64,000 nucleotides of DNA from an uncultured Chitinophagaceae bacterium (GTDB lineage: Bacteria; Bacteroidota; Ignavibacteria; UBA10030; UBA8401). Location: assembly GCA_964439265.1 (NCBI GenBank), contig CAYTOA010000008.1, positions 19,087 through 83,086 of the forward strand, given 5' to 3'. Made by a program: the position numbers and the translations under genes. The notes under the pieces are model-generated. The model made no database searches and was not told the origin of the DNA. It saw only the letters and a list, made by a program, of their open reading frames with translations. Positions 5,832-62,149 of this stretch are shown in pieces (the stretch's first letter is position 1; every line of letters starts with the position of its first letter).

Positions 5832-5899
5832 GAAGAACAATGAATAATTATGAATTAAGAAATAGGAATTACAGCCAAGGATGATTGTTCACTTCAGAG
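5832..5899 (+). repeat. degenerate heptanucleotide tandem array (AATNANN type) in coaD-aminotransferase spacer
   Basis: Reads in one register: GAAGAAC AATGAAT AATTATG AATTAAG AAATAGG AATTACA ... It starts right after the coaD stop. Same word family as the arrays at 14139, 36482, 47321 and 48291, which lie on the opposite strand. Confidence 0.7.
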
Positions 5900-7502: not shown

Positions 7503-7963
7503 TATCTCGTTCCTAACGTCTCGTTGGGAACGGCAACTTCTTAAATTCCGCTTCAACAAGCTAAATTGTTTTCCCAATCTCAACGGAGATACGTTCCCAA
7601 TCGGAGATTGGGAACGAGATGGCCGCAATAAAAATCCCCGAGCTTTACCGGCCCGGGGATTCTTCTTATCTCGTTCCCAGCGTCTCATTGGGAACGCTAA
7701 CCTCTCACACATTGGTTTTGACGCTTGGAGTGGAAATTAAGAAGACGCCCCATGAGAATTTCGTCAACGGTTAGATAAATGTCATTAACTCATGACTCAG
7801 ATTTCTTTCTTACTTAACAATGAAGCAGAGCTTTTGTCCAGTTGCGTTCCCAAACGGAGTTTGGGAACGAGAAGTTAAAAGCGTGGCGTCCCAATCGGAG
7901 ATTCGGAACGAGATGGCTGCCATAAAAATCCCCGAGCTTTACCGGCCCGGGGATTCTTTTATT
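7503..7963. repeat. REP-like palindrome field: five copies of CGTTCCCAAN-5nt-NTTGGGAACG plus a duplicated ~70-nt hairpin+terminator module
   Basis: Palindromes at 7508-7532, 7592-7616 (perfect 10-bp arms), 7672-7696, 7845-7869 (perfect) and 7887-7910 (degenerate). Module 7592-7665 recurs at 7887-7960 with a few mismatches. Confidence 0.85.
7922..7958 (-). terminator. rho-independent terminator of pckA
   Basis: Stem ATCCCCG/CGGGGAT (7928-7934 / 7948-7954). On the minus strand it is followed by a T-run, about 25 nt after the pckA stop. An identical hairpin lies at 7634-7660. Confidence 0.6.
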
Positions 7964-13053: not shown

Positions 13054-14136
13054 CTACTTTGCGACGCGAAAACCTTTTGCGCGGAGTGATTTTGCTGCCA
13101 AGCGTGCTGTTTCGCCCGATTCGAACGACAGGCGAAAAGTCCCTCCCTGTCCTTCACGTACTTTCAATAATTCAATATCGTTGATATTGATCCCCGATCG
13201 GAACAACGTTGTCGTCATGGTTGAAAGCGTACCCGGTTTGTCATCGACCCATACAAAAAGATCATGAAGGGAATGAAGGAAACCCTTTGTGTTCTTCGGG
13301 ATCGAATCGCGGAATGATTTCGCGCGGAGAAACTTTTTACCGACATCGGACAATGAGCGTTGGTTCAGCCTTTTGCGGAATTGTCGAAGGAGTTTCTCGA
13401 ACTCCTGCAGCGCTCGTTTCGTTTCTTTCCTGTTGTTGGAAAGGATGTCTTTCCACACAGGGAACGGGCTCGACGCTATCCGTGTCATGTCCCGGAACCC
13501 GCCGGCGGCAAGCTGCAGGAATGCAGGGTTGCCTTTGTTCTTCCGTGATGCACTGTCCATCAAACCTACTGCGAGAAGTTGGGGGAGATGGCTGATTGCA
13601 GCAGCGACACGGTCGTGCTCGCGAGCATCCATCGTCAATACCCTCGCGCCGATCGACTTCAGAAGCGCAGCCAGCAGCCGGGTCTCTTTCGCCCGGCCGC
13701 GCGGAGGACAGAGAACATAGACGGCATTTTGGAAGAGGAGTGCGTCGGCGTATTCAATACCGCTTCCCTCCGACCCCGCCATCGGGTGCCCACCGATGAA
13801 TATCCCCCGCGATCTAAAATATCTCTTCGCACTGGCCTGCACCACTCCTTTTACACTTCCGACATCGCTGACAATCGTCGTGGAGGATATAAACCGGGAA
13901 ACATCGGAAAGAAGCTTTAAGATAGAATCAACGGGTGTACATAAAAAGACAATTTCTGCATCGGACACGGCGGCTCGAAGCGACGGTGCGGCGACATCTA
14001 TTGCCTTTCGCTTCTTCGCGCGGCGCAACACTCCTGGGGAATCGAATCCAACGATGGTGTTTCCGGAATCAGTCTGCTTGATCGCGAGCCCCAGCGAACC
14101 GCCGATAACACCGAGACCGATGATGGCTATTTTCAT
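13054..14136 (-). CDS. tyrA: prephenate dehydrogenase with C-terminal ACT domain
   Basis: MKIAIIGLGVIGGSLG Rossmann motif, GGHPMAGSE catalytic motif, ACT-like tail. ATG at 14136 is preferred to the TTG at 14148. Confidence 0.85.
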   Translation of the reverse strand: MKIAIIGLGVIGGSLGLAIKQTDSGNTIVGFDSPGVLRRAKKRKAIDVAAPSLRAAVSDAEIVFLCTPVDSILKLLSDVSRFISSTTIVSDVGSVKGVVQASAKRYFRSRGIFIGGHPMAGSEGSGIEYADALLFQNAVYVLCPPRGRAKETRLLAALLKSIGARVLTMDAREHDRVAAAISHLPQLLAVGLMDSASRKNKGNPAFLQLAAGGFRDMTRIASSPFPVWKDILSNNRKETKRALQEFEKLLRQFRKRLNQRSLSDVGKKFLRAKSFRDSIPKNTKGFLHSLHDLFVWVDDKPGTLSTMTTTLFRSGININDIELLKVREGQGGTFRLSFESGETARLAAKSLRAKGFRVAK

Positions 14137-14138
14137 AT

Positions 14139-14250
14139 CAATTAACAATCATCAATGAACAATGAACATGGGGAGTGAACAGTAAACAGTAATCATTAAC
14201 TCTACTCTGAATTCCTAATTCATAATTCTTAATTCATAATTCTTAATTGC
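14139..14250 (-). repeat. heptanucleotide tandem array filling the whole DAHP synthase-tyrA spacer (16 heptamers in one register)
   Basis: Plus strand reads CAATTAA CAATCAT CAATGAA CAATGAA CATGGGG AGTGAAC AGTAAAC AGTAATC ATTAACT CTACTCT GAATTCC TAATTCA TAATTCT TAATTCA TAATTCT TAATTGC. Confidence 0.85.
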
Positions 14251-14252
14251 CT

Positions 14253-15269
14253 CTACGCTATGCTTCTTCCGATCGCTTCTGCGATAATGCGCACCTGCGT
14301 CATTAATTCGTCGAACTGCTCTGGAAAAAGCGATTGTGCCCCGTCAGATTTTGCATGATCGGGATCGTTGTGAACTTCAACCATGATGGCATCGGCGCCT
14401 GCGGCCACCGCTGCACGCGCCATCGGTATCACCTTATCCCGGATGCCGACTCCGTGCGACGGGTCCGCAACAACGGGCAGATGGCTTTTAGCGTGGATCA
14501 CCGGTATTGCGCTGATGTCCATCGTGTTTCGTGTCGCGGTTTCGAAGGTGCGAATGCCGCGCTCGCACATGATCACCTGCTTGTTCCCTCCTGACAAGAT
14601 ATACTCCGCCGACATCAACCACTCCTCGATCGTCGCAGCCAAACCGCGTTTCAGCATCACAGGCGTCCGCGATTTTCCAAGTTCTTTCAAGAAAGTAAAA
14701 TTCTGCATGTTGCGCGCGCCGATCTGAAGGACGTCGGCATAGTTCTCAACAAGCTCTATCTGGTTCGAATCCATCACTTCGGTGATGACAAGCAATCCGA
14801 ACTCGTCAGCTGCGCGGCGCATCAGCTTCAGTCCTTCCTCGCCCATGCCCTGGAACGAATACGGCGATGAACGCGGCTTGAATCCTCCCCCCCGTAGAAA
14901 CTTCGCCCCGTGCGCCGCGACATGCTTGGCGATAGTGAAAATTTGTGCCTCGCTCTCGATCGAACAGGGACCGGCCATCATGACCACTTCCTTCCCCCCT
15001 ATTTTCACCCCTTTGATGTCGAAGACTGAATTCTCCGGATGGAACGATCTGCTCGCAAGTTTGAACGGATCGGTAATCCTGTACACATGTGCAACACCCG
15101 GCAGAAGTTCAAGCTGCCGCGTATCGAAATCCGGTTTCACCCCTATCGCGCCGAGCACTGTCTGATTGATTCCCGTTGACCGGTGCACGTCAAATCCGAA
15201 ATCATGAAGCACTTTGATGATGCGCTCTACATCTTGTTCTGTGGCGTGCTGCTCGAGTACGACAACCAT
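14253..15269 (-). CDS. 3-deoxy-7-phosphoheptulonate (DAHP) synthase, type I-beta with N-terminal regulatory ferredoxin-like domain
   Basis: 338 aa. N-terminal ~65-aa domain (MVVVLEQHATEQDVERIIKVL...), then a KDO8P/DAHP-synthase TIM barrel (MAGPCSIES, LRGGGFKPRSSPYSFQG, ADPSH). Confidence 0.85.
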   Translation of the reverse strand: MVVVLEQHATEQDVERIIKVLHDFGFDVHRSTGINQTVLGAIGVKPDFDTRQLELLPGVAHVYRITDPFKLASRSFHPENSVFDIKGVKIGGKEVVMMAGPCSIESEAQIFTIAKHVAAHGAKFLRGGGFKPRSSPYSFQGMGEEGLKLMRRAADEFGLLVITEVMDSNQIELVENYADVLQIGARNMQNFTFLKELGKSRTPVMLKRGLAATIEEWLMSAEYILSGGNKQVIMCERGIRTFETATRNTMDISAIPVIHAKSHLPVVADPSHGVGIRDKVIPMARAAVAAGADAIMVEVHNDPDHAKSDGAQSLFPEQFDELMTQVRIIAEAIGRSIA

Positions 15270-15334
15270 GTGGCATCCTTATGCGATAATTGATTGAATT
15301 TGTTTTTTAAAAGTCTGTAAGAATTCAGGTATCA

Positions 15335-15429
15335 GGAGACAGGAGGCCGCAGTCCGGGCGGAAAGGTGTATTTGTTTCTCTTTCAATGCTGGCCGGATCA
15401 AAATTTCACTTCTTCTGCCTCCTGTCTCC
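15335..15429 (-). promoter_or_regulatory. long-loop hairpin (13-bp perfect arms) between lptB and the DAHP synthase gene
   Basis: GGAGACAGGAGGC at 15335-15347 is the exact reverse complement of GCCTCCTGTCTCC at 15417-15429, with a 69-nt loop. Function unknown. Confidence 0.3.
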
Positions 15430-15449
15430 AGCCTGCCAACCTTCATCTC

Positions 15450-35985: not shown

Positions 35986-36028
35986 AATAAAAAAGGCCAA
36001 GATTCCTGTATCACACTTTCGGCAGCGG
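35986..36028 (-). repeat. displaced, diverged duplicate of the SRP RNA 3' tail plus terminator
   Basis: 39/43 identity to 36374-36416, by my hand alignment: AATAAAAAAGG[C/T]CAAG[A/C]TT[C/A]CTGTATCACACTTTCGG[C/T]AGCGG. Confidence 0.8.
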
Positions 36029-36358
36029 TCGACGATTCAACGAGTCGTCGACTCGTTGAGGGTCGGGCGAAAGTGTACGTTCTGACTGAAGCAACTCTTC
36101 AATTTTTATGTGATTAAATTGGGAAATCAGCCGCTTTTTCCTTTCGGTATTCCATTTCTTTTTCAATTCCTGCTCACGCCACATTGCCTCCGATCGCCGA
36201 TCAAAGACTTCAAAATAGCCCAATTGCCACGGTGATTTCTTCCGAGTAGATTGAACTCTTCCTGAATTATGAAGTTTTAGTCTCGCATGAATATCTTGAG
36301 TCTGTCCAGTATAGAGGGTTCCGTCAGCGTCGCTCACGAGAATGTAAACGTAAAACAT
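36011..36358 (-). CDS. small standalone GIY-YIG nuclease-domain protein
   Basis: FYVYILVSDADGTLYTGQTQDIHARLKLHN...RRSEAMWREQELKK gives the GIY...YTG, R, E and N core. ATG at 36358 follows GGGGAGGG. The last codons and stop lie inside the duplicated SRP RNA tail. Confidence 0.8.
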   Translation of the reverse strand: MFYVYILVSDADGTLYTGQTQDIHARLKLHNSGRVQSTRKKSPWQLGYFEVFDRRSEAMWREQELKKKWNTERKKRLISQFNHIKIEELLQSERTLSPDPQRVDDSLNRRPLPKV

Positions 36359-36382
36359 TAATCCCTCCCCACGAATAAAAAA

Positions 36383-36477
36383 GGTCAAGCTTACTGTATC
36401 ACACTTTCGGTAGCGGGCCGTTGCTTCCTTCCGGACCTGGCGGGGTTGGGCGACTTACGGTTGTACAGGGCTTGACC
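36383..36477 (-). ncRNA. ffs: signal recognition particle RNA (small/4.5S type)
   Basis: Minus strand reads GGTCAAGCCCTGTACAACCGTAAGTCGCCCAACCCCGCCAGGTCCGGAAGGAAGCAACGGCCCGCTACCGAAAGTGTGATACAGTAAGCTTGACC. It contains the conserved domain IV CAGGUCCGGAAGGAAGCA with a GGAA tetraloop, a terminal stem GGTCAAGC/GCTTGACC, and a following T6 run. Confidence 0.85.
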
Positions 36478-36481
36478 TTTA

Positions 36482-36544
36482 CAATTAACAATGAACAATC
36501 AACAATGATCATTCATTCTTAATTCATAATTCTTAATTATTAAT
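36482..36544 (-). repeat. heptanucleotide tandem array between tRNA-Ala and ffs (9 heptamers in register)
   Basis: CAATTAA CAATGAA CAATCAA CAATGAT CATTCAT TCTTAAT TCATAAT TCTTAAT TATTAAT. Closely related to the array at 14139-14250. Confidence 0.85.
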
Positions 36545-36554
36545 TGCTCTCTTG

Positions 36555-38722: not shown

Positions 38723-39278
38723 ATCATCTCCTGCTTTCACTTGGTGGTGTTTCCCGGTTCGATCGACCAATCAAACACCGGGTTCTTCAAGCCTCTCGCT
38801 CGGCGCACATTTGGAGCCGGTATCAATAATTGTCATCGACGATTCGTTCGGGACAAAATCGATTGCATGGTGGTCGGAGATCGGCATTGCTTTCCGGACT
38901 CAGAATATTTCCGGGAATAACCGCATTGACGATTTCAATTTCAGCATCGTCCATGGAGTCAATTTTCAATTCGCTATCGGATGGGAACTCATTTCCCCGC
39001 AATCGAGCACTCTTATGCTTCTCTCTGCACTGCTAATCCATCTATTGATAGGCCACGTAATCGCGCGAGCAGCATGCCGGCAACGGCTCATCCATTGTTA
39101 ACGTTTTCGGTCCCGGGCGAGCCGCAACCGCAAGGGCAAACCTCGATACCATATCGGACGGAATATGTCCTATCGCCGCAGCGACGAATGACTCAACTTC
39201 AGCGAAGAAAAAGACCCGACATCGGGAACATAAAGTGAAGCCAAATAATATAGAAAAGAATAGAAGTGAATTCAAGGC

Positions 39279-39533
39279 GAATTCTGGTAGTGTCCTAATT
39301 TGAATAATCAGTGCCATAAAATGATCCCAGAATGACATTGATGGGATTGGAGGGCTTAAGAATGATGAAGGCACCAAAAACTATAGGTCATTCCGAGCGA
39401 AGCGAGGAATCTATGCGGTAAGAAAGATTCTCCCGAAGGGATGCCTTCGGCATTCACTCCGCTTCGCTCCGTTCAGAATGACATTCCTCAGGCTTTTTAC
39501 ATGTCCATTCAAATTAGGACACTACCCGAATTC
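39279..39533. mobile_element. MITE-like non-coding element with 27-bp terminal inverted repeats and internal inverted repeats
   Basis: GAATTCTGGTAGTGTCCTAATTTGAAT (39279-39305) against the reverse complement of 39507-39533 is 26/27. Internal imperfect inverted repeat GTCATTCCGAGCGAAGCGAGG (39387-39407) / 39459-39482, and hairpin CCGAAGG-GATG-CCTTCGG (39433-39450). No ORF. Confidence 0.5.
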
Positions 39534-45763: not shown

Positions 45764-45777
45764 CGCGTCGGGGGGAT

Positions 45778-45934
45778 GCGTTGTGCGTTAGTAGGTATAA
45801 GTTTTAAGCTATAGGTTGTAAGTTGTATGCTTTGCGTCTTAGGTTTTACGCTATAGGTCTACGCCATGATTTATAACTTAGGACTTAAAACTCATGACCT
45901 ATAACTCAGAACATACAACACAAAACGCACAACG
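45778..45934. repeat. heptanucleotide array (~22 units) between convergent genes, bounded by an 11-bp inverted repeat
   Basis: In one register: ...AAGTTTT AAGCTAT AGGTTGT AAGTTGT ATGCTTT GCGTCTT AGGTTTT ACGCTAT AGGTCTA ... ACTTAGG ACTTAAA ACTCATG ACCTATA ACTCAGA ACATACA ACACAAA ACGCACA. CGTTGTGCGTT (45779-45789) pairs with AACGCACAACG (45924-45934). Confidence 0.75.
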
Positions 45935-45943
45935 TATCGCCGT

Positions 45944-47312: not shown

Positions 47313-48257
47313 TCAAAACCGAATTTTCAAATTCCTAATTCTTAATTCATTATTCTTAATTGCATTCTCGCACCATTCGATTGTCCGCTGAATTCCTTCG
47401 TCCAGCGAGACTGTCGCCTTCCAGCCCAGTGCATTGATCTTACCGACGTCGAGCAATTTCCGGGGCATGCCGTCCGGTTTTGTCCCATCGAAACTAACCG
47501 CGCCTGTAAAGCCCGACATTTCCCTTACTAGGTGAGCCAGGTCAAAAATTGAGATATCCTCCCCGCTTCCAATATTGATGATCTCGCTGCTGTCGTAGCG
47601 CTTCATAAGAAATACGCAGGCATTCGCCAGATCGTCAACAAAAAGGAACTCCCGTTTCGCCTTTCCAGTCCCCCACAAAAGCACCGACGCAGCGCTGGAA
47701 TTGCGGGCTTCGATAAATTTCCGGATCAACGCGGGCAGAACGTGCGAATTCTCGAGGTCGAAATTGTCGTTCGGTCCATACAAGTTCGTAGGCATGACGG
47801 AAATAAAATTCGTTCCGTACTGTTTGTTGTAGGCCTGGCACATTTTGATCCCGGCAATTTTGGCGACCGCGTACGCATCGTTCGTCGGCTCCAGCTTGCC
47901 GTCAAGCAAGTATTCTTCCTTGATCGGCTGCGGTGCAAACTTGGGATAGATACAGGAGCTCCCAAGGAAACAGAGCTTCTTCACCTTGTTAAGGTACGAC
48001 GAGTGGATAACATTGTTCTGAATCTGGAGGTTGTCATAAATAAATTCGGCGGAATGCGTGTCGTTTGCGTAGATCCCCCCCACGATCGCAGCAGCCAAAA
48101 AAACATATTCCGGCTTTTCTTTCTCGAAAAAATCTTCCACCGCCCCCTGATTTTCCAGCTCCAATTCCTCATGGGTGCGTGCAACGATATTCGAATATCC
48201 TGCGAAATCGAGTGCACGCACTATAGCCGACCCGACGAGTCCGCGGTGACCGGCCAC
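47313..48257 (-). CDS. fcl: GDP-L-fucose synthase (GDP-4-keto-6-deoxy-D-mannose 3,5-epimerase/4-reductase)
   Basis: [36 protein letters not shown] are Fcl motifs. GTG start, with in-frame upstream codons SKIY but no canonical start. The last ~15 codons are encoded by a heptamer array. Confidence 0.9.
47321..47362 (-). repeat. heptanucleotide array overlapping the 3' end of fcl
   Basis: ...CAA ATTCCTA ATTCTTA ATTCATT ATTCTTA ATTG. Same family as 14209-14250 and 48340-48363. Confidence 0.8.
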
Positions 48258-48290: not shown

Positions 48291-48363
48291 CTCTGAGGTT
48301 TGAGTTGTAGTTTGTTAGTTGTTAGTTGTGGATTTCAAATTCATGATTCTTAATTCTTAATTG
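48291..48363 (-). repeat. heptanucleotide array in gmd-fcl spacer
   Basis: CTCTGAG GTTTGAG TTGTAGT TTGTTAG TTGTTAG TTGTGGA TTTCAAA TTCATGA TTCTTAA TTCTTAA TTG, all in one register. Confidence 0.85.
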
Positions 48364-48369
48364 TTTCGC

Positions 48370-51580: not shown

Positions 51581-51627
51581 TATATTTTTAGTCTTATGAC
51601 GATAGATCTATTAATCGAATTGCGATG

Positions 51628-51745
51628 AGTCAATAGTAAACAGTGAACAGTAAATCGTAACTATGAAATGCCGACTAATCCGGATAAAAATAAATCATAT
51701 CCCATCACCATTGACTTTTCACTATTTACTATTTTCTATACTCCT
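51628..51745. repeat. heptamer arrays downstream of / overlapping the 3' end of the four-helix-bundle gene
   Basis: AGTCAAT AGTAAAC AGTGAAC AGTAAAT CGTAACT (51628-51662) and CATTGAC TTTTCAC TATTTAC TATTTTC (from 51709). The AGTRAAC words also occur at 14174-14194. Confidence 0.7.
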
Positions 51746-52114
51746 GACCAACCCACTAAGCAATTTCTGAATTCCGATAACCTCATTTTGAACAACATCA
51801 AATTTCGTTAGCGCAATGTAGTGCAATCTCAACGAAATTTCGATTTGAGTATCCAGTTCGCTGAGCGATGCCTGGGAGATATTCAAAAAGTGGAGTTTGT
51901 CGTTCTTAGATTTTCTTGCCAGCCCTTCTGCTATGTTCGAAACTACCGAAACAGAAGCCCGACGCAGTTGCGACTTTAATCCAAATTCTTCTTCTCTTGG
52001 GAATGCTCTCGTCAATTCATAGGCCTGCACGACCAATGCCATCGCCTCCTGCCATAACAACAGCTTCTTATGCGGTCTATATCCCTTTGTCCCCTTTATA
52101 TTCTCCTCCATCAC
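51722..52114 (-). CDS. four-helix-bundle protein (23S rRNA intervening-sequence protein family)
   Basis: LLLWQEAMALVVQAYELTRAFPREEEFGLKSQLRRASVSVVSNIAEG is the family signature as I recall it (TIGR02436-type). The first codon is GTG and an ATG follows at 52111. Confidence 0.85.
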   Translation of the reverse strand: MMEENIKGTKGYRPHKKLLLWQEAMALVVQAYELTRAFPREEEFGLKSQLRRASVSVVSNIAEGLARKSKNDKLHFLNISQASLSELDTQIEISLRLHYIALTKFDVVQNEVIGIQKLLSGLVRSIENSK

Positions 52115-52119
52115 TCCCC

Positions 52120-52152
52120 CTGTCTATTTACTATTGACCATTTACTCTGTGC
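52120..52152. repeat. heptamer array upstream of the four-helix-bundle gene
   Basis: CTGTCTA TTTACTA TTGACCA TTTACTC TGTGC, between the ugd stop and the four-helix-bundle start. Confidence 0.6.
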
Positions 52153-55360: not shown

Positions 55361-58300
55361 TTATTTCAAGTAAAGCGCTTTTTTAATATTCTGAAATCTT
55401 TTTGAGGAAGAAAGTATACTCTCGGCATTAACCACGATGATATACACGCCTGATGAAAAATTCTGCGGACTCCACCGATATTCGTAGAACTGCGGCTCCT
55501 GTGTCTCGTTGACAAGCGTCGCCATAAGCTGTCCCAAAATATTGTACACTTTGATGGATACCTTGCTTGGTTCAGGGATCCCGTAGCGTATTGTCGTTGC
55601 CGGATTAAACGGATTGGGATAATTTTGATAAACAATATAGTCCTTCGGCATGATGGGATGCTGCCCGTTCAATGACAGTATTGTTCCCGTGGTAACAAAA
55701 TATATGGTATCTCTAGACCACGTGGATTTTCCACCGTTGATCATCGCAGATACCGTCCACCGATATGATGTACGGACGGATAATTTTTTCATCATCGCCA
55801 ATGAACTATAAAGAGTGTCGTACAAACCGCTGATGGTCGTATCGACGCCTCCTCCCCATAGCTTCACCGCATACCGCACTGTGTCTCCAGGGTCGTGGCC
55901 GTGAGACGGCTGCCACGTCAGCGTCAGAGCTTTACCATAATCGATGGTGAGGCTATCGGTGTGTGAGAGATTCACCAATTGAAATGGGGTTGGCGGCAGC
56001 AACACCGGTATTACGACGATCTTCCAGGTCCGTTGAGCGATTATACCCTTTTTGTCAATTACTGCGACCGTAATAATACTATCGCCAGCATTAGCGTTGA
56101 TCGGCACTCCGACAAGTGTATCATTCACCAAATGCAGCCATTGCGGCCCGGCGATCAGTTTAAACGTCAAAGAATCCCTTCCGTAGACGGCATCCGAATC
56201 TACGGCCGGAATAACAATCCGGTAGGCGGAATCGGCTCGCGCCAGCGTATCCCGCACTGGAAGGATGAGAGGAGGATGGTTTACGTTCACAACGTGCAGC
56301 GCAAAGTGTCTCGTTGTCGACAAACCATGGTTGTCGCTCACGGTAAGTTCCATCACGGTATCGGCGGCACTCCTTCCGTACGGAATTCCGGTTAGCGTGT
56401 GCTGCACGGGATCGTGATGCATCCATGTCGGCAGCAAGGGAGCAGTAACCGTCAGGCTATCGCCGAAGAATGAGGCATCAATGTCATAAATTGTGTATGA
56501 GGAACTGTAGAGCGAGTCTTCGACCGCCGATGAATCAGGAGTGCTTGTAAAGACCGGCGCGTGATCGGTATGCAGTATTGCCAGCGTATAATTCTGCCGT
56601 GCAACTCCTCCGCTGCCATCGCTGGCAGACAGGCTGACCGGAAACGTTCTGTATTGAGCGGAATCAAATGCTGCATGTACGCCGGAAACGGTTTTCTTTG
56701 CAGAGCGGGAGACCGTTGGAATAAGTTTTGAAACGCTGTTTCGTATTACGCTCGTACGAACCTTGCTTCCAATCGCCGCTCTACTAGATCTCGTTGAAAG
56801 CGAATCGACGACTAAACTCGGTATGCCGCCGAGAATACCGCTGGCAGAATCTATCGTCAGAAAATTCGGAGCCGTGATGATCGCGTACCGGATTTTGTCC
56901 CCGAACAGCGATGTGTCAGGATCGGTTGCGATCGCTCTATAAAAGTACGATGAATCTTCCACGCCGCTGATGGGAGGGACCGAGACGAAAACCGGCGGAT
57001 GATTCACATGCCTGATATGAATTCCATATCGAAACGAAGTCACTCCTCCCTTGCCGTCATACGCCTGAACGATCATAGTTGTGGAATCGACAAGGTCGCT
57101 GCCGCGCGGCGTTCCGGATATTACTCCCGTCACTGAGTCGATGGAGATCCAATGCGGCTTGGATGCACAACGATAATGCACTACATCTCCGAACTGAGCG
57201 GAGTCGATATCGCTCGCTCGTATCGCGGCGGTGTAGAGAGAATCTTCCGTCGCGGTCGAATCAGGAAAGAGAACAATGACCGGTGCATGATTTGTATGCC
57301 TCACCGTGAGATTAAAACTGTACTCGCTCGCCCCCCCCTTGTCGTCCCATACCGCGATCGTAACGGGAAAATCTCTGGATGTGTTGTCAGTTTTTATACC
57401 TGAGATTTGCGCCACCTTCATCTTGGACTTTACGCTATAGAACTTTATCGCCTTCGCCTTGTTGAGGATTTGCGTTACTCTGGCATTCGTCCTTTGAGCG
57501 GCGAGCGACGCAGAAGGCGAAGTAATTCCTTCAAGGTTTGGTACACCCTGAATGATCCCCTTGAGTGAATCAATCGAGAGCCAGCTCGGACTTTGGGCGA
57601 TGCCGAAGTAGTCCTTATCTCCCCACATCAGCGAGTCCTGATCGGCTGCTCCTGCGATCGAATAATAAAGAGAATCTTCTACGGCACTGTCCGCCGGAAC
57701 CGAGATAAATTGCGGAGCGTGGTTCGTATGAATAACATGCAGGACAAATTGCTGTGCCGATACACCGCCATTATTGTCGTACGCCTGGATACGCACGATC
57801 GTGTCGCGCGCATTTGTACCCGACGGAAGTCCGGTGAGGGTTCCTGCAACACTGTCAATAGTTATCCAGCTAGGTTTGACCGAGAGCTTGTAGCGAACCC
57901 GATCCCCAAATAAGGCACTGTCTTGATCCTGCGCCACCGCTGCGTACCGATACAACGAATCTTCCGTTACAACGCTGTCCGGCACCGAAACAAATAAGGG
58001 ATTGTGGTTTGTATGGATTACCTTAAGATGATAGGTTTGATTAATTAGACCGCCGTGCCCGTCGCCGACCTTGACCGTGACCACGGAATCGCCGACATTT
58101 ATTCCTTGCGGCATCCCGGAAACTATTCCACCTGAAGAAACGGTTATCCAACTCGGCTTTTGCGTCAACGAATAATTCAAGACCTGACCTATCAGTGTAT
58201 CCGGGTCGTGCGCGACAACCGTATATTGATACAGAGTATCTTCATGCGCCGTAAACAGGGGCAATGAAACTATAGTCGGCGCGTGATTTACCAGCGTGAT

Positions 58301-61300
58301 CGTAAGAGAATATTGATGCTGGGCCAGACCTCCATGGCCGTCATATGCCTGCAGCACGACTACGGTATCAAATGCATTCTGAACATGAGGAGTACCAAAG
58401 AATATCCCCGTCGTGCTGTCTATCGCCAGCCATGCCGGTTTGATAAGCCGGTAGTGAACAACGTCTCCAAAGAGTGTACTGTCCTGATCACTCGCATACA
58501 CTCTCGATTGATACAATGTGTCTTCCGTTGCCGGCGGAAGGCTTGAGGTTTTTATCACCGGCGAATGGTTTGTATGGATGACATGAAGAGCATAACTCTG
58601 TGTCGCCGTCCCTCCCTTCCCGTCGCTGGCTACCACCGTAACCGTCGTATCCCCAATGTTATTCCCTCGCGGTGTCCCCGTGACCACTCCGCTTATACTA
58701 TCGATCACCGTCCAACTTGGATGTATCGTCAAATGATAATGTACTCGGTCCCCAAATAACAGACTGTCCTGATCCGATCCCCATACCGCATACCGGTACA
58801 ATGTGTCCTCCGCCGCATGGGTCACCGCTGAACTTACGATCACCGGCGCATGGTTCGTATGGACAACATGAATCGAATAACTCTGGCTCGATGCGCCCCC
58901 TTTTCCGTCATACGCTGACACTGTTACAATCGTATCCTGCGCATTCATCCCGCTCGCCGTCCCGGTGATCATCCCGCTCACACTATCGATCTTCAACCAC
59001 ACCGGCTTTATCGTCAGCCGGTAATGAACAACGTCTCCAAAGAGTGTACTGTCCTGATCACTCGCATACACTCTCGTTTGATACAATGTGTCTTCTATTG
59101 CCGACGGAAGGCTTGAGGTTTTTATCACCGGCGAATGGTTTGTATGGATGACATGAAGAGCATAACTCTGTGTCGCCGTCCCTCCCTTCCCGTCGCTGGC
59201 TACCACCGTAACCGTCGTATCCCCAATGTTATTCCCTCGCGGTGTCCCCGTGACCACTCCGCTTATACTATCGATCACCGTCCAACTTGGATGTATCGTC
59301 AAATGATAATGTACTCGGTCCCCAAATAACAGACTGTCCTGATCCGATCCCCATACCGCATACCGGTACAATGTGTCCTCCGCCGCATGGGTCACCGCTG
59401 AACTTACGATCACCGGCGCATGGTTCGTATGGACAACATGAATCGAATAACTCTGGCTCGATGCGCCCCCTTTTCCGTCATACGCTGACACTGTTACAAT
59501 CGTATCCTGCGCATTCATCCCGCTCGCCGTCCCGGTGATCATCCCGCTCACACTATCGATCTTCAACCACACCGGCTTTATCGTCAGCCGGTAATGAACA
59601 ACGTCTCCAAAGAGTGTACTGTCCTGATCACTCGCATACACTCTCGTTTGATACAATGTGTCTTCTATTGCCGACGGAAGGCTTGAGGTTTTTATCACCG
59701 GCGAATGGTTTGTATGGATGACATGAAGAGCATAACTCTGTGTCGCCGTCCCTCCCTTCCCGTCGCTGGCTACCACCGTAACCGTCGTATCCCCAATGTT
59801 ATTCCCTCGCGGTGTCCCCGTGACCACTCCGCTTATACTATCGATCACCGTCCAACTTGGATGTATTTGAAACGAATACGCTATTCGATCTCCCCACAAC
59901 GCACTATCCTGATCAGTTGCAATGAAGCGATAGGAATATGCAGTATCCTGCTGTGCAAGTGTGTTCGCCAGGGAAAGGATGCGGGGGGCGTGATTGACGT
60001 GCGCTACGTGCAGAGTAAATTGCTGGGTGGCCGTTCCTCCTTTATTGTCATACGCCTGCACAGCGACCACGGTGTCACGGGCGTTCATGCCGGAGGGGAG
60101 GCCGGAGATGACGCCGGCAACGCTGTCAATGCTCAGCCAGCTTGGTTTGAGAGACAGACGATACCGTATCACATCCAGATAAGCCGTCGTGTCCCTGTCT
60201 ACGCCGATGACTCTGTACTTGTACGGGGAGTCTTCCGTCGCCGTCGAATCTGGCGCCGTAATAATTTTAGGATTGTGATTTGTATGAAGAACTGTCAGAG
60301 TGTATGATTGGGTTGAGATCTGGCCTGCGCCATTACTGAGTTGTATCGTTACCGTTGTATCGCCGACATTATTGGCCCCCGGTGTTCCATAAATGATTCC
60401 GGTCAAATTGTTGATTCTCAACCAACTTGGTTTTATTAAAAGGGCGTATCTCAGCGTGTTGTCTAAGAATGCGGTTTGAGAAACTACTGTGTCTCTATAA
60501 ATAGAATCTTCATGGGCCACAAACAACGGAGTTGAAATAATTTTGGCAGGGATATTCTTCCTAAGAATTGCAGAACTGGATACTAAATAGAGCGTATCAA
60601 ATGTCTGAGTGGCTGCCCGTTCAAGGTAAATAGATTTATTTACCTCATTTGCCAGCGTACTCGGCGTTTCAAAGACAGTGAAGCAATCACTCAGCAATCT
60701 CGACGAAAAAAATCCTGGAACATTATTGAACCCGGTGGGATACCTCGTCATTCCCCACGCATCCATTGGAGCGAACGCATTGACGGTATTAATCAAATTA
60801 CCGCAAAAAATTATTTGCTTTATCCCTTTACTCTTGAGATAGGTATACAAGGAAGTCTTATCATTAAAGGTCAACTCACTTCCAAGAGGTGCGCACGATG
60901 AATCTATCGCTTGTCCATTCGCGATATGAAAAACCCTAATGCCGAAATTTCTGGCCCATTTAATAAGTGGTGCAATGTTATTTCGGTTGTTGTTCTGAAC
61001 CCGGGCCAGCCATCCTGCATTGGGAAAATAACTCCATGCGTTGACAACAACCAATGCGGTTTGGGCGGGATTAATAGAGGGACCAAAGGTAGAATCATAG
61101 TTTATCGACGCGAGGAGAGAAGGTCTTTGTACTGTCAATGTACTTACACTCTCGCCAAGCGCCGATGCCAAAGACGTCAGCAGGGTCGTTTGAAATTTCG
61201 TTTCAACGGCATTAATACCCCAATTATAGGCAAGTTGCGACCAGCTTATGATACAATCTTTGATCCCAATGATTTTGTATGTATTTGGAAATTTAAGGCT

Positions 61301-62080
61301 CAGGGTGTTGATACTGATTGGACGGGTAAAGAGAACGCATTCCGATGCATCACCGCCAGTATACAGAAGTGTTGTCAAACCCTTACGACTCAGCATCGTG
61401 TCAGGAATGGCGGAGATGGTGGCACTGACATCCCATGGCTTCAACAGCACTGTAGGATAGAGCGGCCCGTCGTGGTTGAAAAGGAAAACCGGAATATTGT
61501 GCTTTCGAGCGACATTCAGCATCGTGACGATGTTAACGACATTGCTATCAGCGGCCGACGCCCACACGTCACACAGTATTAATGCCGTTTTTCCAATATC
61601 TATGGAATCAGTAAAAGTAATAGTATGTGAAGATGATTCCGAAACATAATTAACGGAATCAATCGCCGGAATAAATTTGAAATTCTGAAACGTCAGGTAA
61701 TGTCCCGTCGTGAACCATGAGGTTTGACCTGAGACATTGCTGGTATCGTTCACGGCTTGAAGTTTCCAAAAGTACGTGGTCGATGGCAGGAGGTTGCTGA
61801 CGACCAGATAGGAACCGGTCACAACGGTATCCATGATACCCCACGACACCGAATCGGTTCCGACGAAGATCCTATACGAATGAGTCGAATCGGCCCACTG
61901 AAGAACAACTTGCTTGTAGTTTTGATTCGTCGCACCGATTTCCGGCGAAAGAATGTTCTGGCCGAAACCTTGAACGGAGGCGGCCAAGACAAACAAGAGG
62001 GCAATTCCGCAATTTCTCAGACGGAAAATTCGTAGCAGAGCGGCTGTCGTTCGACAGATGTTTAATTTAGATATCGACAT
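55361..62080 (-). CDS. giant (~2240 aa) T9SS-secreted surface protein: FN3-like + two isochorismatase-like(?) modules + ~15 cadherin-like/He_PIG Ig modules + FN3-like + T9SS CTD
   Basis: ATG at 62080 gives a signal peptide (MSISKLN...LLFVLAASVQGFGQ). The recurring ~95-aa module is V.HTNH.P.I......A.EDS.Y.Y.V.A.DQDS..FGD...Y.L...PSWL.IDS..G...G.P.G.N..DT.V.V.A.D..GG. C-terminal YQNYPNPFNPATTIRYGIP...VYNILGQ. Confidence 0.85.
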   Translation of the reverse strand: MSISKLNICRTTAALLRIFRLRNCGIALLFVLAASVQGFGQNILSPEIGATNQNYKQVVLQWADSTHSYRIFVGTDSVSWGIMDTVVTGSYLVVSNLLPSTTYFWKLQAVNDTSNVSGQTSWFTTGHYLTFQNFKFIPAIDSVNYVSESSSHTITFTDSIDIGKTALILCDVWASAADSNVVNIVTMLNVARKHNIPVFLFNHDGPLYPTVLLKPWDVSATISAIPDTMLSRKGLTTLLYTGGDASECVLFTRPISINTLSLKFPNTYKIIGIKDCIISWSQLAYNWGINAVETKFQTTLLTSLASALGESVSTLTVQRPSLLASINYDSTFGPSINPAQTALVVVNAWSYFPNAGWLARVQNNNRNNIAPLIKWARNFGIRVFHIANGQAIDSSCAPLGSELTFNDKTSLYTYLKSKGIKQIIFCGNLINTVNAFAPMDAWGMTRYPTGFNNVPGFFSSRLLSDCFTVFETPSTLANEVNKSIYLERAATQTFDTLYLVSSSAILRKNIPAKIISTPLFVAHEDSIYRDTVVSQTAFLDNTLRYALLIKPSWLRINNLTGIIYGTPGANNVGDTTVTIQLSNGAGQISTQSYTLTVLHTNHNPKIITAPDSTATEDSPYKYRVIGVDRDTTAYLDVIRYRLSLKPSWLSIDSVAGVISGLPSGMNARDTVVAVQAYDNKGGTATQQFTLHVAHVNHAPRILSLANTLAQQDTAYSYRFIATDQDSALWGDRIAYSFQIHPSWTVIDSISGVVTGTPRGNNIGDTTVTVVASDGKGGTATQSYALHVIHTNHSPVIKTSSLPSAIEDTLYQTRVYASDQDSTLFGDVVHYRLTIKPVWLKIDSVSGMITGTASGMNAQDTIVTVSAYDGKGGASSQSYSIHVVHTNHAPVIVSSAVTHAAEDTLYRYAVWGSDQDSLLFGDRVHYHLTIHPSWTVIDSISGVVTGTPRGNNIGDTTVTVVASDGKGGTATQSYALHVIHTNHSPVIKTSSLPSAIEDTLYQTRVYASDQDSTLFGDVVHYRLTIKPVWLKIDSVSGMITGTASGMNAQDTIVTVSAYDGKGGASSQSYSIHVVHTNHAPVIVSSAVTHAAEDTLYRYAVWGSDQDSLLFGDRVHYHLTIHPSWTVIDSISGVVTGTPRGNNIGDTTVTVVASDGKGGTATQSYALHVIHTNHSPVIKTSSLPPATEDTLYQSRVYASDQDSTLFGDVVHYRLIKPAWLAIDSTTGIFFGTPHVQNAFDTVVVLQAYDGHGGLAQHQYSLTITLVNHAPTIVSLPLFTAHEDTLYQYTVVAHDPDTLIGQVLNYSLTQKPSWITVSSGGIVSGMPQGINVGDSVVTVKVGDGHGGLINQTYHLKVIHTNHNPLFVSVPDSVVTEDSLYRYAAVAQDQDSALFGDRVRYKLSVKPSWITIDSVAGTLTGLPSGTNARDTIVRIQAYDNNGGVSAQQFVLHVIHTNHAPQFISVPADSAVEDSLYYSIAGAADQDSLMWGDKDYFGIAQSPSWLSIDSLKGIIQGVPNLEGITSPSASLAAQRTNARVTQILNKAKAIKFYSVKSKMKVAQISGIKTDNTSRDFPVTIAVWDDKGGASEYSFNLTVRHTNHAPVIVLFPDSTATEDSLYTAAIRASDIDSAQFGDVVHYRCASKPHWISIDSVTGVISGTPRGSDLVDSTTMIVQAYDGKGGVTSFRYGIHIRHVNHPPVFVSVPPISGVEDSSYFYRAIATDPDTSLFGDKIRYAIITAPNFLTIDSASGILGGIPSLVVDSLSTRSSRAAIGSKVRTSVIRNSVSKLIPTVSRSAKKTVSGVHAAFDSAQYRTFPVSLSASDGSGGVARQNYTLAILHTDHAPVFTSTPDSSAVEDSLYSSSYTIYDIDASFFGDSLTVTAPLLPTWMHHDPVQHTLTGIPYGRSAADTVMELTVSDNHGLSTTRHFALHVVNVNHPPLILPVRDTLARADSAYRIVIPAVDSDAVYGRDSLTFKLIAGPQWLHLVNDTLVGVPINANAGDSIITVAVIDKKGIIAQRTWKIVVIPVLLPPTPFQLVNLSHTDSLTIDYGKALTLTWQPSHGHDPGDTVRYAVKLWGGGVDTTISGLYDTLYSSLAMMKKLSVRTSYRWTVSAMINGGKSTWSRDTIYFVTTGTILSLNGQHPIMPKDYIVYQNYPNPFNPATTIRYGIPEPSKVSIKVYNILGQLMATLVNETQEPQFYEYRWSPQNFSSGVYIIVVNAESILSSSKRFQNIKKALYLK
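58447..59866 (-). repeat. ~2.5 tandem copies of a 570-bp (190-aa, two Ig modules) unit inside the giant gene, near-identical at DNA level
   Basis: Sequence from 58531 onward matches the sequence 570 nt later by my line-by-line reading, until divergence at 59866. Plus-strand shadow ORFs 58565-58759 and 59135-59329 (and 58717-58968 / 59287-59538) have identical translations. Confidence 0.9.
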
Positions 62081-62149
62081 CAGGACCGGATTATTAACGA
62101 TGAAATAAATATATCCTGCGGGCAACTTGTGAAGCAAGCATCTTTCTGC

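What the first reader, a model, noticed from the sequence alone, without database searches (positions are those of the whole stretch)
14139..14250. Operon-internal spacers built from degenerate heptanucleotide tandem arrays (STRR-like), oriented with transcription
Seen directly: the 116-nt spacer between the DAHP synthase gene and tyrA is 16 heptamers in one unbroken register: (CAATNAN)x4, CATGGGG, (AGTRAWC)x3, ATTAACT, CTACTCT, GAATTCC, (TAATTCN)x4, TAATTGC.

The same word families recur at several other sites:
- 36482-36544, between tRNA-Ala and ffs.
- 48291-48363, between gmd and fcl.
- 47321-47362, in the fcl 3' end.
- 51628-51745 and 52120-52152, flanking the four-helix-bundle gene.
- 45778-45934, between convergent genes.
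- 5832-5899, in the opposite orientation, between plus-strand genes coaD and the aminotransferase.

In all five co-directional cases the TAAGAAT/TATGAAT-type array, read on the transcribed strand, begins within about 10 nt of the upstream stop codon or tRNA 3' end. The orientation therefore tracks transcription.

Established knowledge: heptameric short tandemly repeated repetitive (STRR) sequences are known from heterocystous cyanobacteria, and one of them is CAACAGT-like. I am not aware of them as a feature of FCB-group genomes.

Inference: these are a genome-wide spacer family. Possible roles include unstructured AU-rich RNA, RNase E/G or ribosomal protein S1 entry sites, slippage-prone spacing modules, or landing pads for small selfish genes. 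The function is unknown.
Basis: partly seen in the sequence, partly recalled or inferred. Interest (0 to 1): 0.7.

Follow-up and report, generated by a model that had tools for sequence, protein, structure and literature searches.

The report
Heptamer-repeat hairpin inserted between operon genes
The spacer between two aromatic amino acid genes is a recently inserted stretch of 7-base tandem repeats whose two ends pair into a long hairpin; this kind of element is already known in cyanobacteria and is shown here to be widespread in other bacteria, often bracketing one small gene family.

Summary
The window holds nine period-7 segments at eight intergenic sites. No other lag reaches the same score, and intergenic lags 7, 14 and 21 give z = 6.2, 5.2 and 5.1.

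The focal 116-nt spacer lies between the DAHP synthase gene and tyrA. It is a lineage-specific insertion: relatives with 82% identical DAHP synthase have a 10-nt junction and almost no period-7 arrays.

Its outer arrays pair with each other and fold the whole spacer into one imperfect hairpin. The 5' arm is five TAAGAAT/TATGAAT units and the 3' arm is four TTCATTG-type units. The same design fills the tRNA-Ala/ffs spacer (z = -3.7).

In 2 Mb of related loci from many phyla, neighbouring arrays are complementary (p = 6e-13). They fill tRNA-tRNA and ribosomal-protein spacers. They bracket PF05635 "23S rRNA intervening-sequence protein" genes in 8 of 11 independently sampled cases.

Precedents exist:
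- STRR sequences in cyanobacteria.
- Heptamer simple-sequence repeats (Mrazek 2007).
- TAACTGA repeats in Bacteroidetes (MacGregor 2015).
- The Nostoc trnL-intron P6b hairpin.
- Heptamers in the Coxiella intervening sequence.

The "unstructured RNA" reading fails at two sites.

Verdict: a new member of a known kind. The PF05635 link is the most interesting by-product.

The parts
14137..14252 (-). Whole 116-nt spacer between the DAHP synthase stop (14253-14255) and the tyrA ATG (14134-14136). It is a lineage-specific insertion that folds into one hairpin spanning 14139-14249.
   Evidence: Relatives L236 and L237 have a 10-nt spacer.
14209..14250 (-). 5' arm: five TAAGAAT/TATGAAT/TAGGAAT units, preceded by CAAT. 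It starts 7 nt after the stop codon.
14174..14194 (-). Apical array: about three CTGTTTA/CTGTTCA units on the sense strand (AGTAAAC/AGTGAAC on the + strand).
14139..14168 (-). 3' arm: four TGTTCAT/TGATGAT/TGTTAAT units ending in TTAATTG, 2 nt before the tyrA ATG. It pairs with the 5' arm, with 4 G.U pairs.
36481..36547 (-). Second copy of the same design, filling the tRNA-Ala to ffs spacer: CAATTAAT..TAAGAAT arm, loop, TTGTTCA..TTAATTG arm.
   Evidence: (z = -3.7).
5832..5899 (+). TATGAAT/TAAGAAA array after the coaD stop, with a short TGATTGTTCAC partner. The hairpin is weak.
   Evidence: z = -0.53.
45772..45941 (.). Long hairpin between convergent genes. The arms are TAAGTTN/TAGGTNN arrays and their complement (56-nt arms, 71% complementary).
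   Evidence: (z = -1.65 on the + strand, -3.07 on the - strand).
47319..47365 (-). TAAGAAT-type array that is read through as the last 18 codons of fcl. It has no partner arm.
   Evidence: z = +0.59.
48292..48367 (-). gmd-fcl spacer: a TAAGAAT-type array followed by CAACTAA units. It is unstructured on the sense strand.
51624..51749 (-). Arrays at and downstream of the 3' end of the PF05635 gene (ATTTACT/GTTCACT and ATAGTAA units). They form a hairpin with arms at 51632-51658 and 51707-51733.
51722..52111 (-). PF05635 (23S rRNA intervening-sequence protein, four-helix-bundle) gene, bracketed by inverted heptamer arrays.
52120..52152 (-). Weak upstream array (TAAATGG TCAATAG TAAATAG on the sense strand), complementary to the array downstream of the gene.
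15320..15440 (-). Empty bracket in the lptB to DAHP synthase gap. An 18-nt, 89% complementary inverted repeat lies at 15335-15352 and 15412-15429, with a 13-bp perfect core GGAGACAGGAGGC. Close relatives carry a PF05635 gene between (CAGAATT/CAGGAGA)n and its complement at this position.

Best explanation
The 116-nt spacer is a recent insertion into what was a tight, roughly 10-nt junction between the DAHP synthase gene and tyrA. It belongs to a widespread class of self-pairing elements whose arms are arrays of degenerate heptamers.

Shown:
- On the transcribed strand, five TAAGAAT/TATGAAT units (5' arm) pair with four TTCATTG-type units (3' arm).
- The whole insert folds into one imperfect AU-rich stem-loop. 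Its base (CAATTAA/TTAATTG) leaves only 3 nt after the stop codon and 2 nt before the start codon.
- The same design fills the tRNA-Ala/ffs spacer.

Inferred about origin:
- Such elements arise and spread like REP, MITE or intervening-sequence palindromes.
- They change length in 7-nt steps by slipped-strand mispairing.
- They persist in operon junctions, tRNA clusters and ribosomal-protein operons because they fold out of the way.
- They also form the usual bracket around PF05635 genes.

Inferred about the effect on RNA, not shown:
- The stem is a double-stranded RNA module that is cut or removed by RNase III-type processing. This would uncouple or stabilise the neighbouring RNAs.
- The inference rests on analogy with 23S rRNA intervening sequences and with Correia elements.
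For: Insertion:
- L236 and L237 (82% identical DAHP synthase) have 10-nt spacers and 0 to 1 true period-7 arrays in 21 kb.
- The window has 9 segments in 64 kb. Closer relatives (95%, 89% and 88% identity) have spacers of 109, 244 and 130 nt that begin with the same array.

Hairpin:
- The minimum-energy fold pairs the two outer arrays over the whole spacer, both in the window and in L232.
- The sense strand is 9-14 kcal/mol more stable than the antisense strand: -25.8 versus -15.3, -18.1 versus -8.9, and -23.7 versus -9.3.
- The twin at tRNA-Ala/ffs has z = -3.7.

Generality:
- 138 pairs of adjacent arrays have a median duplex energy of -19.9 kcal/mol, against -11.5 when re-paired (p = 6e-13).
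- Three tRNA-tRNA spacers in L313 are each a hairpin built from a different heptamer family.
- The spacers between ribosomal-protein genes in L151, a Chloroflexia contig, each hold a long, near-perfect hairpin of the form (AATTCTT)n-loop-(AAGAATT)n.
- Many metagenome hits have the form (GAATTAW)n-loop-(WTAATTC)n.

Bracket around PF05635 genes:
- By my reading of the flanks, 8 of the 11 distinct PF05635 genes retrieved by protein similarity alone have inverted heptamer arrays.
- The gene is present or absent between the same arrays at lptB/DAHP synthase.
- L358 and L359, which are 69% identical and sit in contigs of 39% and 57% GC, share CAATTGA/CAATGGA arrays.

Precedents:
- The Coxiella intervening sequence has tandem GACAGAT repeats, and RNase III cuts at the first repeat (PMC4990558).
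Against: - The focal hairpin is not significant by energy alone (z = -1.45, 16 of 200 shuffles).
- Three window sites show no hairpin (47.3 kb, 48.3 kb and 5.8 kb).
- Across phyla the sense strand is not favoured over the antisense strand (14 versus 12). Selection at the RNA level is therefore unproven.
- No RNA data exist, and RNase III cleavage is analogy only.
- No mobility enzyme was identified, and no identical copy was seen in two different contexts.
- Genes bracketed by arrays are mostly ordinary housekeeping or phage genes. The arrays are therefore not simply gene-cassette ends.
Confidence: 0.55

Rival explanations
1. These are neutral microsatellites. Heptanucleotide simple-sequence repeats expand by polymerase slippage in AT-rich intergenic DNA, with no role for structure and no function.
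For: - Heptamers are the over-represented long simple-sequence-repeat class in many bacteria, and a slippage explanation tied to the polymerase footprint has been proposed (Mrazek 2007, as cited in PMC4692102).
- The unit sequences are very diverse.
- There is no orientation bias across genomes.
- Some window arrays have no partner arm.
Against: - Neighbouring arrays are complementary far beyond re-paired controls (p = 6e-13).
- The purine-rich arm comes first in 44 pairs against 11.
- The same two-array design, with the same CAATTAA...TTAATTG ends, occurs at two unlinked window sites.
- No unit-number polymorphism was seen in the population.
- There is a specific association with PF05635 genes.
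Confidence: 0.2
2. The arrays are a single-stranded AU-rich platform on the mRNA. They would bind ribosomal protein S1, a Csp/CsrA-type protein or RNase E, and so set translation of the downstream gene in a lineage that makes little use of Shine-Dalgarno sequences.
For: - The 3' array ends 2 nt before the tyrA ATG, and no Shine-Dalgarno sequence is present.
- The gmd-fcl spacer is CA-rich and unstructured on the sense strand only (-6.6 versus -19.7 kcal/mol).
- TAACTGA repeats sit just upstream of start codons (PMC4679880).
Against: - The same arrays lie between tRNA-Ala and ffs, between tRNAs, and between convergent genes, where nothing is translated.
- In the focal spacer the region before the start codon is predicted to be paired.
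- Relatives express the same operon with a 10-nt junction.
Confidence: 0.12
3. The arrays work at the DNA level as reiterated binding sites. The binding protein could be a nucleoid protein, a recombinase, or the pentameric PF05635 protein itself, with AATT cores spaced every 7 bp.
For: - AATT cores recur at a 7-bp spacing.
- Sense and antisense strands are equally favoured across phyla.
- PF05635 genes are co-inherited with their arrays at 66% protein identity or above.
Against: - The unit sequences differ widely between loci and between PF05635 cassettes.
- Most arrays have no PF05635 gene nearby.
- No binding data exist.
Confidence: 0.08
4. The hairpins are weak intrinsic terminators or pause sites, with a U-rich 3' arm.
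For: - The purine-rich arm comes first, which places a U-rich arm last on either strand.
- One long hairpin lies between convergent genes.
Against: - The terminator consensus scan finds no hit in the spacer.
- The stems are AU-rich and have no U tail.
- They lie inside tRNA clusters and ribosomal-protein operons, where termination would be harmful.
- L285 carries a canonical terminator next to its array.
Confidence: 0.05

Closest known systems
P6b stem-loop of the Nostoc tRNA-Leu(UAA) group I intron (Costa et al. 2002, as described in PMC3488679)
   Same: - Two arms of degenerate heptanucleotide repeats base-pair into a hairpin in a transcribed RNA.
- Variation comes from copy number and from indels of elements that are not heptamers. 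The 8-nt indel and the roughly 190-nt insert in L233 are comparable.
   Different: - The P6b stem-loop lies inside a group I intron of a cyanobacterium.
- Here the hairpin sits in operon junctions and a tRNA/ffs spacer of an Ignavibacteria-like member of Bacteroidota, and the unit sequences are different.
STRR sequences of heterocystous cyanobacteria (Mazel et al. 1990; from my own knowledge) and heptanucleotide long simple-sequence repeats (Mrazek 2007, cited in PMC4692102 and PMC4679880)
   Same: Both are tandem heptamers that are intergenic, often lie within operons, and occur at many sites per genome.
   Different: - The STRR units (CCCCAGT, TTGGTCA, CAACAGT) do not occur in tandem here.
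- The host phylum differs.
- As far as I know, the pairing of neighbouring arrays is not part of the STRR description.
TAACTGA direct repeats in Beggiatoaceae, Cyanobacteria and five Bacteroidetes (MacGregor 2015, PMC4679880)
   Same: - Both are intergenic heptamer arrays that abut gene ends.
- Shine-Dalgarno sequences are scarce near them.
- They occur upstream of essential genes such as ribosomal-protein genes.
   Different: - The unit differs; there is no tandem TAACTGA in the window.
- Those arrays are oriented forward and lie just upstream of start codons. Here the dominant array follows the upstream stop codon and pairs with a second array.
23S rRNA intervening sequences carrying S23p/PF05635 (Leptospira, Coxiella; PMC4990558)
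   Same: - A PF05635 reading frame lies between inverted repeats that form a stem.
- Tandem heptamers lie upstream of the reading frame (GACAGAT in Coxiella; GACAGAA/GACAGGA-like units in L232-L234).
- The element is a selfish insertion into a transcribed region.
   Different: - Those elements lie in helix 25 or 45 of 23S rRNA, and RNase III excision has been demonstrated for them.
- Here the element lies in mRNA and small-RNA spacers, the focal copy has no reading frame, and processing is untested.
REP/BIME elements, and Correia (NEMIS) elements of Neisseria (from my own knowledge)
   Same: - Both are dispersed palindromic insertions between genes of operons.
- They are transcribed into hairpins that affect mRNA processing and stability. 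Correia hairpins are RNase III substrates.
   Different: - Those families have a conserved consensus sequence, and REP elements have a dedicated RAYT transposase.
- Here the arms are heptamer arrays of many different sequences, and no mobilising enzyme is known.

Membership tests
STRR (cyanobacterial short tandemly repeated repetitive sequences) | Tandem repeats with a 7-nt unit | tested here: met
   Only lag 7 and its multiples stand out.
STRR (cyanobacterial short tandemly repeated repetitive sequences) | Canonical units CCCCAGT, TTGGTCA or CAACAGT in tandem | tested here: not met
   No tandem copy of any of the three occurs on either strand. The central AACAGTA/AACAGTG units only resemble CAACAGT.
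STRR (cyanobacterial short tandemly repeated repetitive sequences) | Host is a heterocystous cyanobacterium | tested here: not met
   The named homologues are from Bacteroidota, Ignavibacteriales and Ignavibacterium. Relatives carry Por_Secre_tail neighbours.
Heptanucleotide long simple-sequence repeats (LSSR5-11, Mrazek 2007) | Tandem iterations of a 5-11 bp unit, enriched in intergenic DNA | tested here: met
   All nine segments are intergenic or lie at gene ends. Coding lag-7 identity is 0.243, against 0.295 in intergenic DNA.
Heptanucleotide long simple-sequence repeats (LSSR5-11, Mrazek 2007) | Length polymorphism in whole units, from slippage | tested here: inconclusive
   None was seen within the population. 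The spacer length and array make-up differ between relatives at 88-95% identity.
Heptanucleotide-repeat hairpin (Nostoc trnL P6b type) | Two arrays of degenerate heptamers that base-pair with each other | tested here: met
   This holds at the focal spacer and the tRNA-Ala/ffs spacer. It does not hold at 47.3 and 48.3 kb. It is general in related loci.
Heptanucleotide-repeat hairpin (Nostoc trnL P6b type) | Located in the P6b arm of a group I intron | tested here: not met
   Rfam finds only the tRNA and the SRP RNA in the window. The sites are operon junctions.
23S rRNA intervening sequence (S23p type) | PF05635 reading frame between stem-forming inverted repeats | tested here: met
   This holds at 51722-52111 and in L232-L234. 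It does not hold in the focal spacer, which has no reading frame.
23S rRNA intervening sequence (S23p type) | Inserted in 23S rRNA helix 25 or 45 | tested here: not met
   There is no rRNA in the window. The hosts are protein-coding operons.
23S rRNA intervening sequence (S23p type) | Excised by RNase III | not testable with these tools
   This needs RNA end mapping or an in vitro cleavage assay.
TAACTGA repeat network (MacGregor 2015) | TAACTGA units in tandem, oriented forward, ending a few nt upstream of start codons | tested here: not met
   There is no tandem TAACTGA. The position relative to the start codon is similar only for the 3' array.
REP/BIME or MITE (Correia-like) dispersed palindromes | Many near-identical copies with a family consensus in one genome | tested here: inconclusive
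   The window has two full copies and three partial copies that share CAATTAAGAAT. L151 has at least six similar copies in 7 kb. The whole genome is not available.
REP/BIME or MITE (Correia-like) dispersed palindromes | A cognate transposase (RAYT) or target-site duplications | not tested
   No transposase was looked for, and no target-site duplication is evident at the DAHP synthase/tyrA junction.
Intrinsic terminator | GC-rich stem followed by a U tract | tested here: not met
   The scan finds no site within 14137-14252.

The most novel reading that the evidence does not exclude
Heptamer-arm hairpins and PF05635 four-helix-bundle genes together form one mobile 'intervening-sequence' system found across bacteria. 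On this reading:
- The system colonises any transcribed spacer, whether in mRNA operons, tRNA clusters or rRNA.
- The classical 23S rRNA intervening sequences are only its best-known landing site.
- Hairpins without a gene, such as the spacer between the DAHP synthase gene and tyrA, are empty or decayed cassettes.
- The heptamer arrays are the cis-acting ends, possibly read by the pentameric PF05635 protein.
Probability: 0.25. Interest if true: 0.8.

Novelty: new member of a known kind. Interest (0 to 1): 0.5.

Why it matters
Taken alone, the finding extends a known but poorly understood class of repeat to an Ignavibacteria-like lineage. It also shows, with a clean before-and-after comparison, that a whole array spacer can be inserted into a 10-nt operon junction.

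More broadly, the data suggest four things:
- 'STRR-like' arrays are usually the two arms of a hairpin, not loose repeats.
- The same architecture sits in tRNA clusters and ribosomal-protein operons of several phyla.
- It is the normal bracket around PF05635 genes, whose function and mobility have been open questions since the 23S rRNA intervening sequences were described.
- Together these give a testable handle, through RNase III processing and through binding of PF05635 protein to its own arrays, on both the repeats and the gene family.

Tried and rejected
1. Orientation relative to transcription as a general rule. I tested GAATTAW arrays between co-directional genes in loci from the viral and genome scans, and the arrays from the metagenome scan. 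The counts were 77:96 and 24:18, so I rejected the rule.

2. A bias towards G.U pairs on the sense strand across phyla. The result was 14 versus 12, which is no support. The effect is seen only in the window lineage.

3. Genes flanked by arrays being small or selfish. They show no size bias, inverted and direct flanks are 36 versus 35, and the Pfam families are ordinary.

4. Duplex energy between the 100-nt flanks of each gene as a test that ignores the arrays. GC content confounds it (background median -29 kcal/mol), so it gave only weak support.

5. Slippage polymorphism within the population. None was found.

6. A promoter or terminator within the spacer. None was found.

7. A known RNA family within the spacers. 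None was found.

8. Mobility of the exact PF05635 protein of the window. It always sits in the same context.

9. A locus search with a broad PF05635 alignment failed because no block was conserved enough. I repeated it with four closer sequences.

10. Derivation of the empty lptB/DAHP synthase loop from a deleted PF05635 gene. The alignment shows homologous arrays, but the loop has no clear origin.

11. Stop codons as the reason the purine-rich arm comes first. Read by eye, both arms close all three reading frames, so this gives no discrimination.
Full report
**1. Observation**

It lies on the minus strand between the stop codon of a DAHP synthase gene (14253-15269) and the ATG of a prephenate dehydrogenase/ACT gene (13054-14136).

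Tandem Repeats Finder reports period-7 and period-14 arrays at the focal site and at the sites near 36.5, 45.8, 47.3, 48.3 and 51.6 kb. The sites at 5.8 kb and 52.1 kb fall below its score.

A sliding lag-identity test shows that only lag 7 and its double reach high scores. At lag 7, 38 windows score >=26 of 35. At lag 14, 14 windows do. No window does at any other lag from 3 to 15.

Merging these windows gives nine segments at eight sites. All are intergenic or lie at gene ends.

I then restricted the test to the 5.9 kb of intergenic DNA. Lags 7, 14 and 21 have z = 6.2, 5.2 and 5.1 against shuffles, and every other lag from 2 to 20 has |z| <= 2.7.

The gene and RNA identifications are correct. 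A small GIY-YIG gene follows ffs.

**2. Organism and population**

The closest named DAHP synthase homologues come from Bacteroidota, Ignavibacteriales and Ignavibacterium. The window is therefore from an Ignavibacteria-like member of the FCB group.

The identical DAHP synthase occurs on more than 20 metagenome contigs. Among 10 of them, the spacer is the same length in 7, with one G/A difference in two. The other 3 carry an 8-nt indel (CCAGCAAT) plus a few base changes.

In up to nine contigs covering 45.7-52.2 kb, every array has the same length. All are identical apart from single-base differences in three contigs. The arrays are therefore not hypervariable on this time scale.

**3. The spacer is an insertion**

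Two relatives with 82% identical DAHP synthase and the same gene order have a 10-nt junction between the DAHP synthase gene and tyrA. They have 0 and 1 true period-7 arrays in 21 kb.

Relatives at 95%, 89% and 88% identity have spacers of 109, 244 and 130 nt. All begin with a TAAGAAT-type array directly after the stop codon.
- In L233, an inverted repeat (GGATAAATTAGGAATTAAGAA ... GCTAATTCTTAATTTATCC) flanks about 190 nt of other sequence.
- In L235, an ORF6N gene follows the array.

The neighbouring gap between lptB and the DAHP synthase gene is 21 nt in one distant relative. In the three close relatives it holds a PF05635 gene between (CAGAATT/CAGGAGA)n and its reverse complement. In the window, the arrays remain as an 18-nt inverted repeat with a 13-bp perfect core, but there is no gene.

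**4. The arrays are hairpin arms**

Folded as sense RNA, the focal spacer gives one hairpin. The TAAGAAT arm pairs with the TTCATTG arm, from 3 nt after the stop codon to 2 nt before the ATG. The energy is -25.8 kcal/mol with z = -1.45. L232 gives the same topology.

The tRNA-Ala/ffs spacer has the same two arrays and the same ends (CAATTAA...TTAATTG). It folds strongly, with z = -3.7 and 0 of 200 shuffles as stable.

In these three cases the sense strand is 9-14 kcal/mol more stable than the antisense strand, because of G.U pairs.

The spacer between convergent genes at 45.8 kb is a long hairpin on both strands.

Not every array is paired. The gmd-fcl spacer and the array at the fcl 3' end are unstructured, with z = +0.29 and +0.59. 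No sigma-70-type promoter, intrinsic terminator or Rfam family lies in the spacers.

**5. Distribution**

The 25-nt pattern (GAATTAW)3GAAT occurs in 101 stretches of IMG/VR contigs.

The hosts include many Bacteroidota and many cyanobacteria. They also include Lentisphaerae, Treponema, Ruminococcus, Chloroflexia, Kapaibacterium, Patescibacteria and Verrucomicrobia.

Many of these loci carry several period-7 arrays of many unit types and few or none at period 6 or 8. The loci with the lowest GC content are the exception.

A second pattern, in metagenomes, returned many short hairpins of the form (GAATTAW)n-loop-(WTAATTC)n. They come from contigs of 30-65% GC.

**6. Tests in the pooled loci**

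*Orientation.* GAATTAW arrays between co-directional genes are 77 same versus 96 opposite, and 24 versus 18 in the metagenome set. There is no general link to transcription. Arrays with the same orientation as the genes do sit close to the upstream stop codon, at a median of 11 nt.

*Complementarity.* Adjacent arrays in one spacer are complementary. Their median duplex energy is -19.9 kcal/mol, against -11.5 for arrays re-paired between loci (p = 6e-13).

*Polarity.* The purine-rich arm comes first in 44 paired arrays and second in 11 (p = 9e-6). Excluding the unit family used to find the loci, the counts are 13 versus 1. A purine arm followed by its complement reads the same on both strands. 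I have no firm explanation for the polarity itself.

*Strand preference.* There is no preference for the sense strand over the antisense strand across phyla (14 versus 12).

*Bracketed genes.* Genes bracketed by arrays are ordinary. They include ribosomal proteins L14, L24, L5, S17 and L6, phage tail proteins and enzymes.

*Examples.*
- In a Chloroflexia contig, the spacers between the ribosomal-protein genes each hold a long, near-perfect hairpin (AATTCTT)n-loop-(AAGAATT)n.
- In L313, the three spacers of a Thr-Tyr-Gly-Thr tRNA cluster are each a hairpin built from a different heptamer family.

**7. PF05635 genes**

A local profile found further PF05635 genes in the pooled loci. Nearly all lie between heptamer arrays, and most of those arrays are inverted.

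I then took a sample retrieved by protein similarity alone. By my reading of the flanks:
- Of 12 loci (11 distinct, since L364 and L365 are near-duplicates), 11 have a heptamer array on at least one flank.
- Eight of the 11 distinct genes have clearly inverted arms, and the unit sequences differ between them.
- Automated calls, which miss degenerate arrays, find arrays near 10 loci.

Two proteins that are 69% identical, from contigs of 39% and 57% GC, share CAATTGA/CAATGGA arrays. Upstream flanks are richer in purines than downstream flanks, compared with other genes (p = 0.0015). The exact protein of the window always sits in one context.

**8. Literature**

- Heptamer simple-sequence repeats are over-represented in many bacteria, and a slippage explanation has been offered (Mrazek 2007, cited in PMC4692102).
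- TAACTGA heptamer arrays occur in Beggiatoaceae, cyanobacteria and five Bacteroidetes. S1, Csp or CsrA binding has been proposed for them (PMC4679880).
- In the Nostoc trnL intron, degenerate heptanucleotide repeats base-pair into the P6b hairpin. It varies by copy number and by indels that are not heptamers (PMC3488679).
- The Coxiella 23S intervening sequence carries a PF05635 reading frame preceded by strain-variable GACAGAT repeats. RNase III cuts at the first repeat (PMC4990558).
- I found no paper linking PF05635 genes in general to heptamer arrays. That is not proof that none exists.

**9. Interpretation**

Shown:
- The arrays are real.
- The focal spacer is a lineage-specific insertion.
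- Its outer arrays pair.
- The architecture is widespread.
- It is the usual bracket around PF05635 genes.

Inferred:
- The element behaves like a REP, MITE or intervening-sequence palindrome.
- It is tolerated because it folds out of the way.
- It changes length in 7-nt steps.
- It is probably cut by double-strand-specific RNases.

Rivals, each with partial support, are given in the rival-explanations section:
- neutral slippage repeats;
- a single-stranded platform for translation or RNase E;
- reiterated DNA-binding sites;
- weak terminators.

**10. Verdict**

This is a new member of a known kind, the heptanucleotide-repeat arrays and hairpins. The cross-phylum link to PF05635 genes and the purine-first polarity are the parts most worth following up.

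Noticed in passing
window 7504-7914: The 522-nt gap between 7460 and 7983 holds a cluster of about five copies of a roughly 29-nt palindromic repeat (ATCTCGTTCCCAnnnnCTCnTTGGGAACG). It resembles REP/BIME elements and is unrelated to the heptamer arrays.
   Followed up: no
window 39279-39305 and 39507-39533: A 27-nt, 96% complementary inverted repeat with 201 nt between its arms. One arm overlaps the 3' part of an unannotated 111-aa reading frame (39042-39377). It could be a small MITE.
   Followed up: no
window 58446-59866: Five copies of a 285-bp tandem repeat (66% matches) lie inside the 2258-aa reading frame 55361-62137. This points to a repeat-domain surface protein.
   Followed up: no
window 36011-36388 (-): A small GIY-YIG gene lies immediately downstream of ffs, so the order is tRNA-Ala, heptamer hairpin, ffs, GIY-YIG. 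No heptamer array was seen on its downstream side.
   Followed up: partly
window 47313-47369 (-): The fcl reading frame runs through the TAAGAAT-type array. Its last 18 codons ([18 protein letters not shown]) are encoded by repeat DNA, because the array's one open frame is the one in use.
   Followed up: partly
L232 2887-3504; L233 1117-1731; L234 2414-3045; window 15270-15449: A PF05635 gene is present or absent between the same inverted (CAGAATT/CAGGAGA)n arrays in the gap between lptB and the DAHP synthase gene. The units resemble the GACAGAT repeats of the Coxiella intervening sequence.
   Followed up: yes
L235 1281-1790 (and L234 4193-4393): In a relative at 88% identity, an ORF6N (PF10543) gene follows the TAAGAAT array downstream of the DAHP synthase gene, where tyrA sits in the window. 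The contigs end before the downstream flank.
   Followed up: partly
L151 2507-6329 (Chloroflexia MAG DASVQO010000194.1): The spacers between the ribosomal-protein genes (S17, L14, L24, L5, L6 and others) each hold a long, near-perfect hairpin (AATTCTT)n-loop-(AAGAATT)n, the longest stem about 39 bp. The pyrimidine-rich arm comes first. Some loops are related to each other, which suggests recent spread.
   Followed up: partly
L313 2988-3454: A Thr-Tyr-Gly-Thr tRNA cluster has three spacers, each a whole-spacer hairpin with arms from a different heptamer family.
   Followed up: partly
pooled loci L011-L237: Paired heptamer arrays have a polarity that does not depend on strand: the purine-rich arm comes first in 44 pairs and second in 11 (13 versus 1 without the unit family used to find the loci). 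The cause is unexplained. One possibility is that it gives an enclosed gene a purine-rich, Shine-Dalgarno-like leader whichever way the gene points.
   Followed up: partly
L358 1424-1870 and L359 1408-1940: PF05635 proteins that are 69% identical, in contigs of 39% and 57% GC, are flanked by the same CAATTGA/CAATGGA arrays. This suggests that the gene and its arrays travel together.
   Followed up: partly
L001, L005, L008 (orthologous to window 14230-14245): Three of 10 population contigs carry an 8-nt insertion (CCAGCAAT) after the first TAAGAAT unit. It breaks the 7-nt register and duplicates the GCAAT motif.
   Followed up: yes
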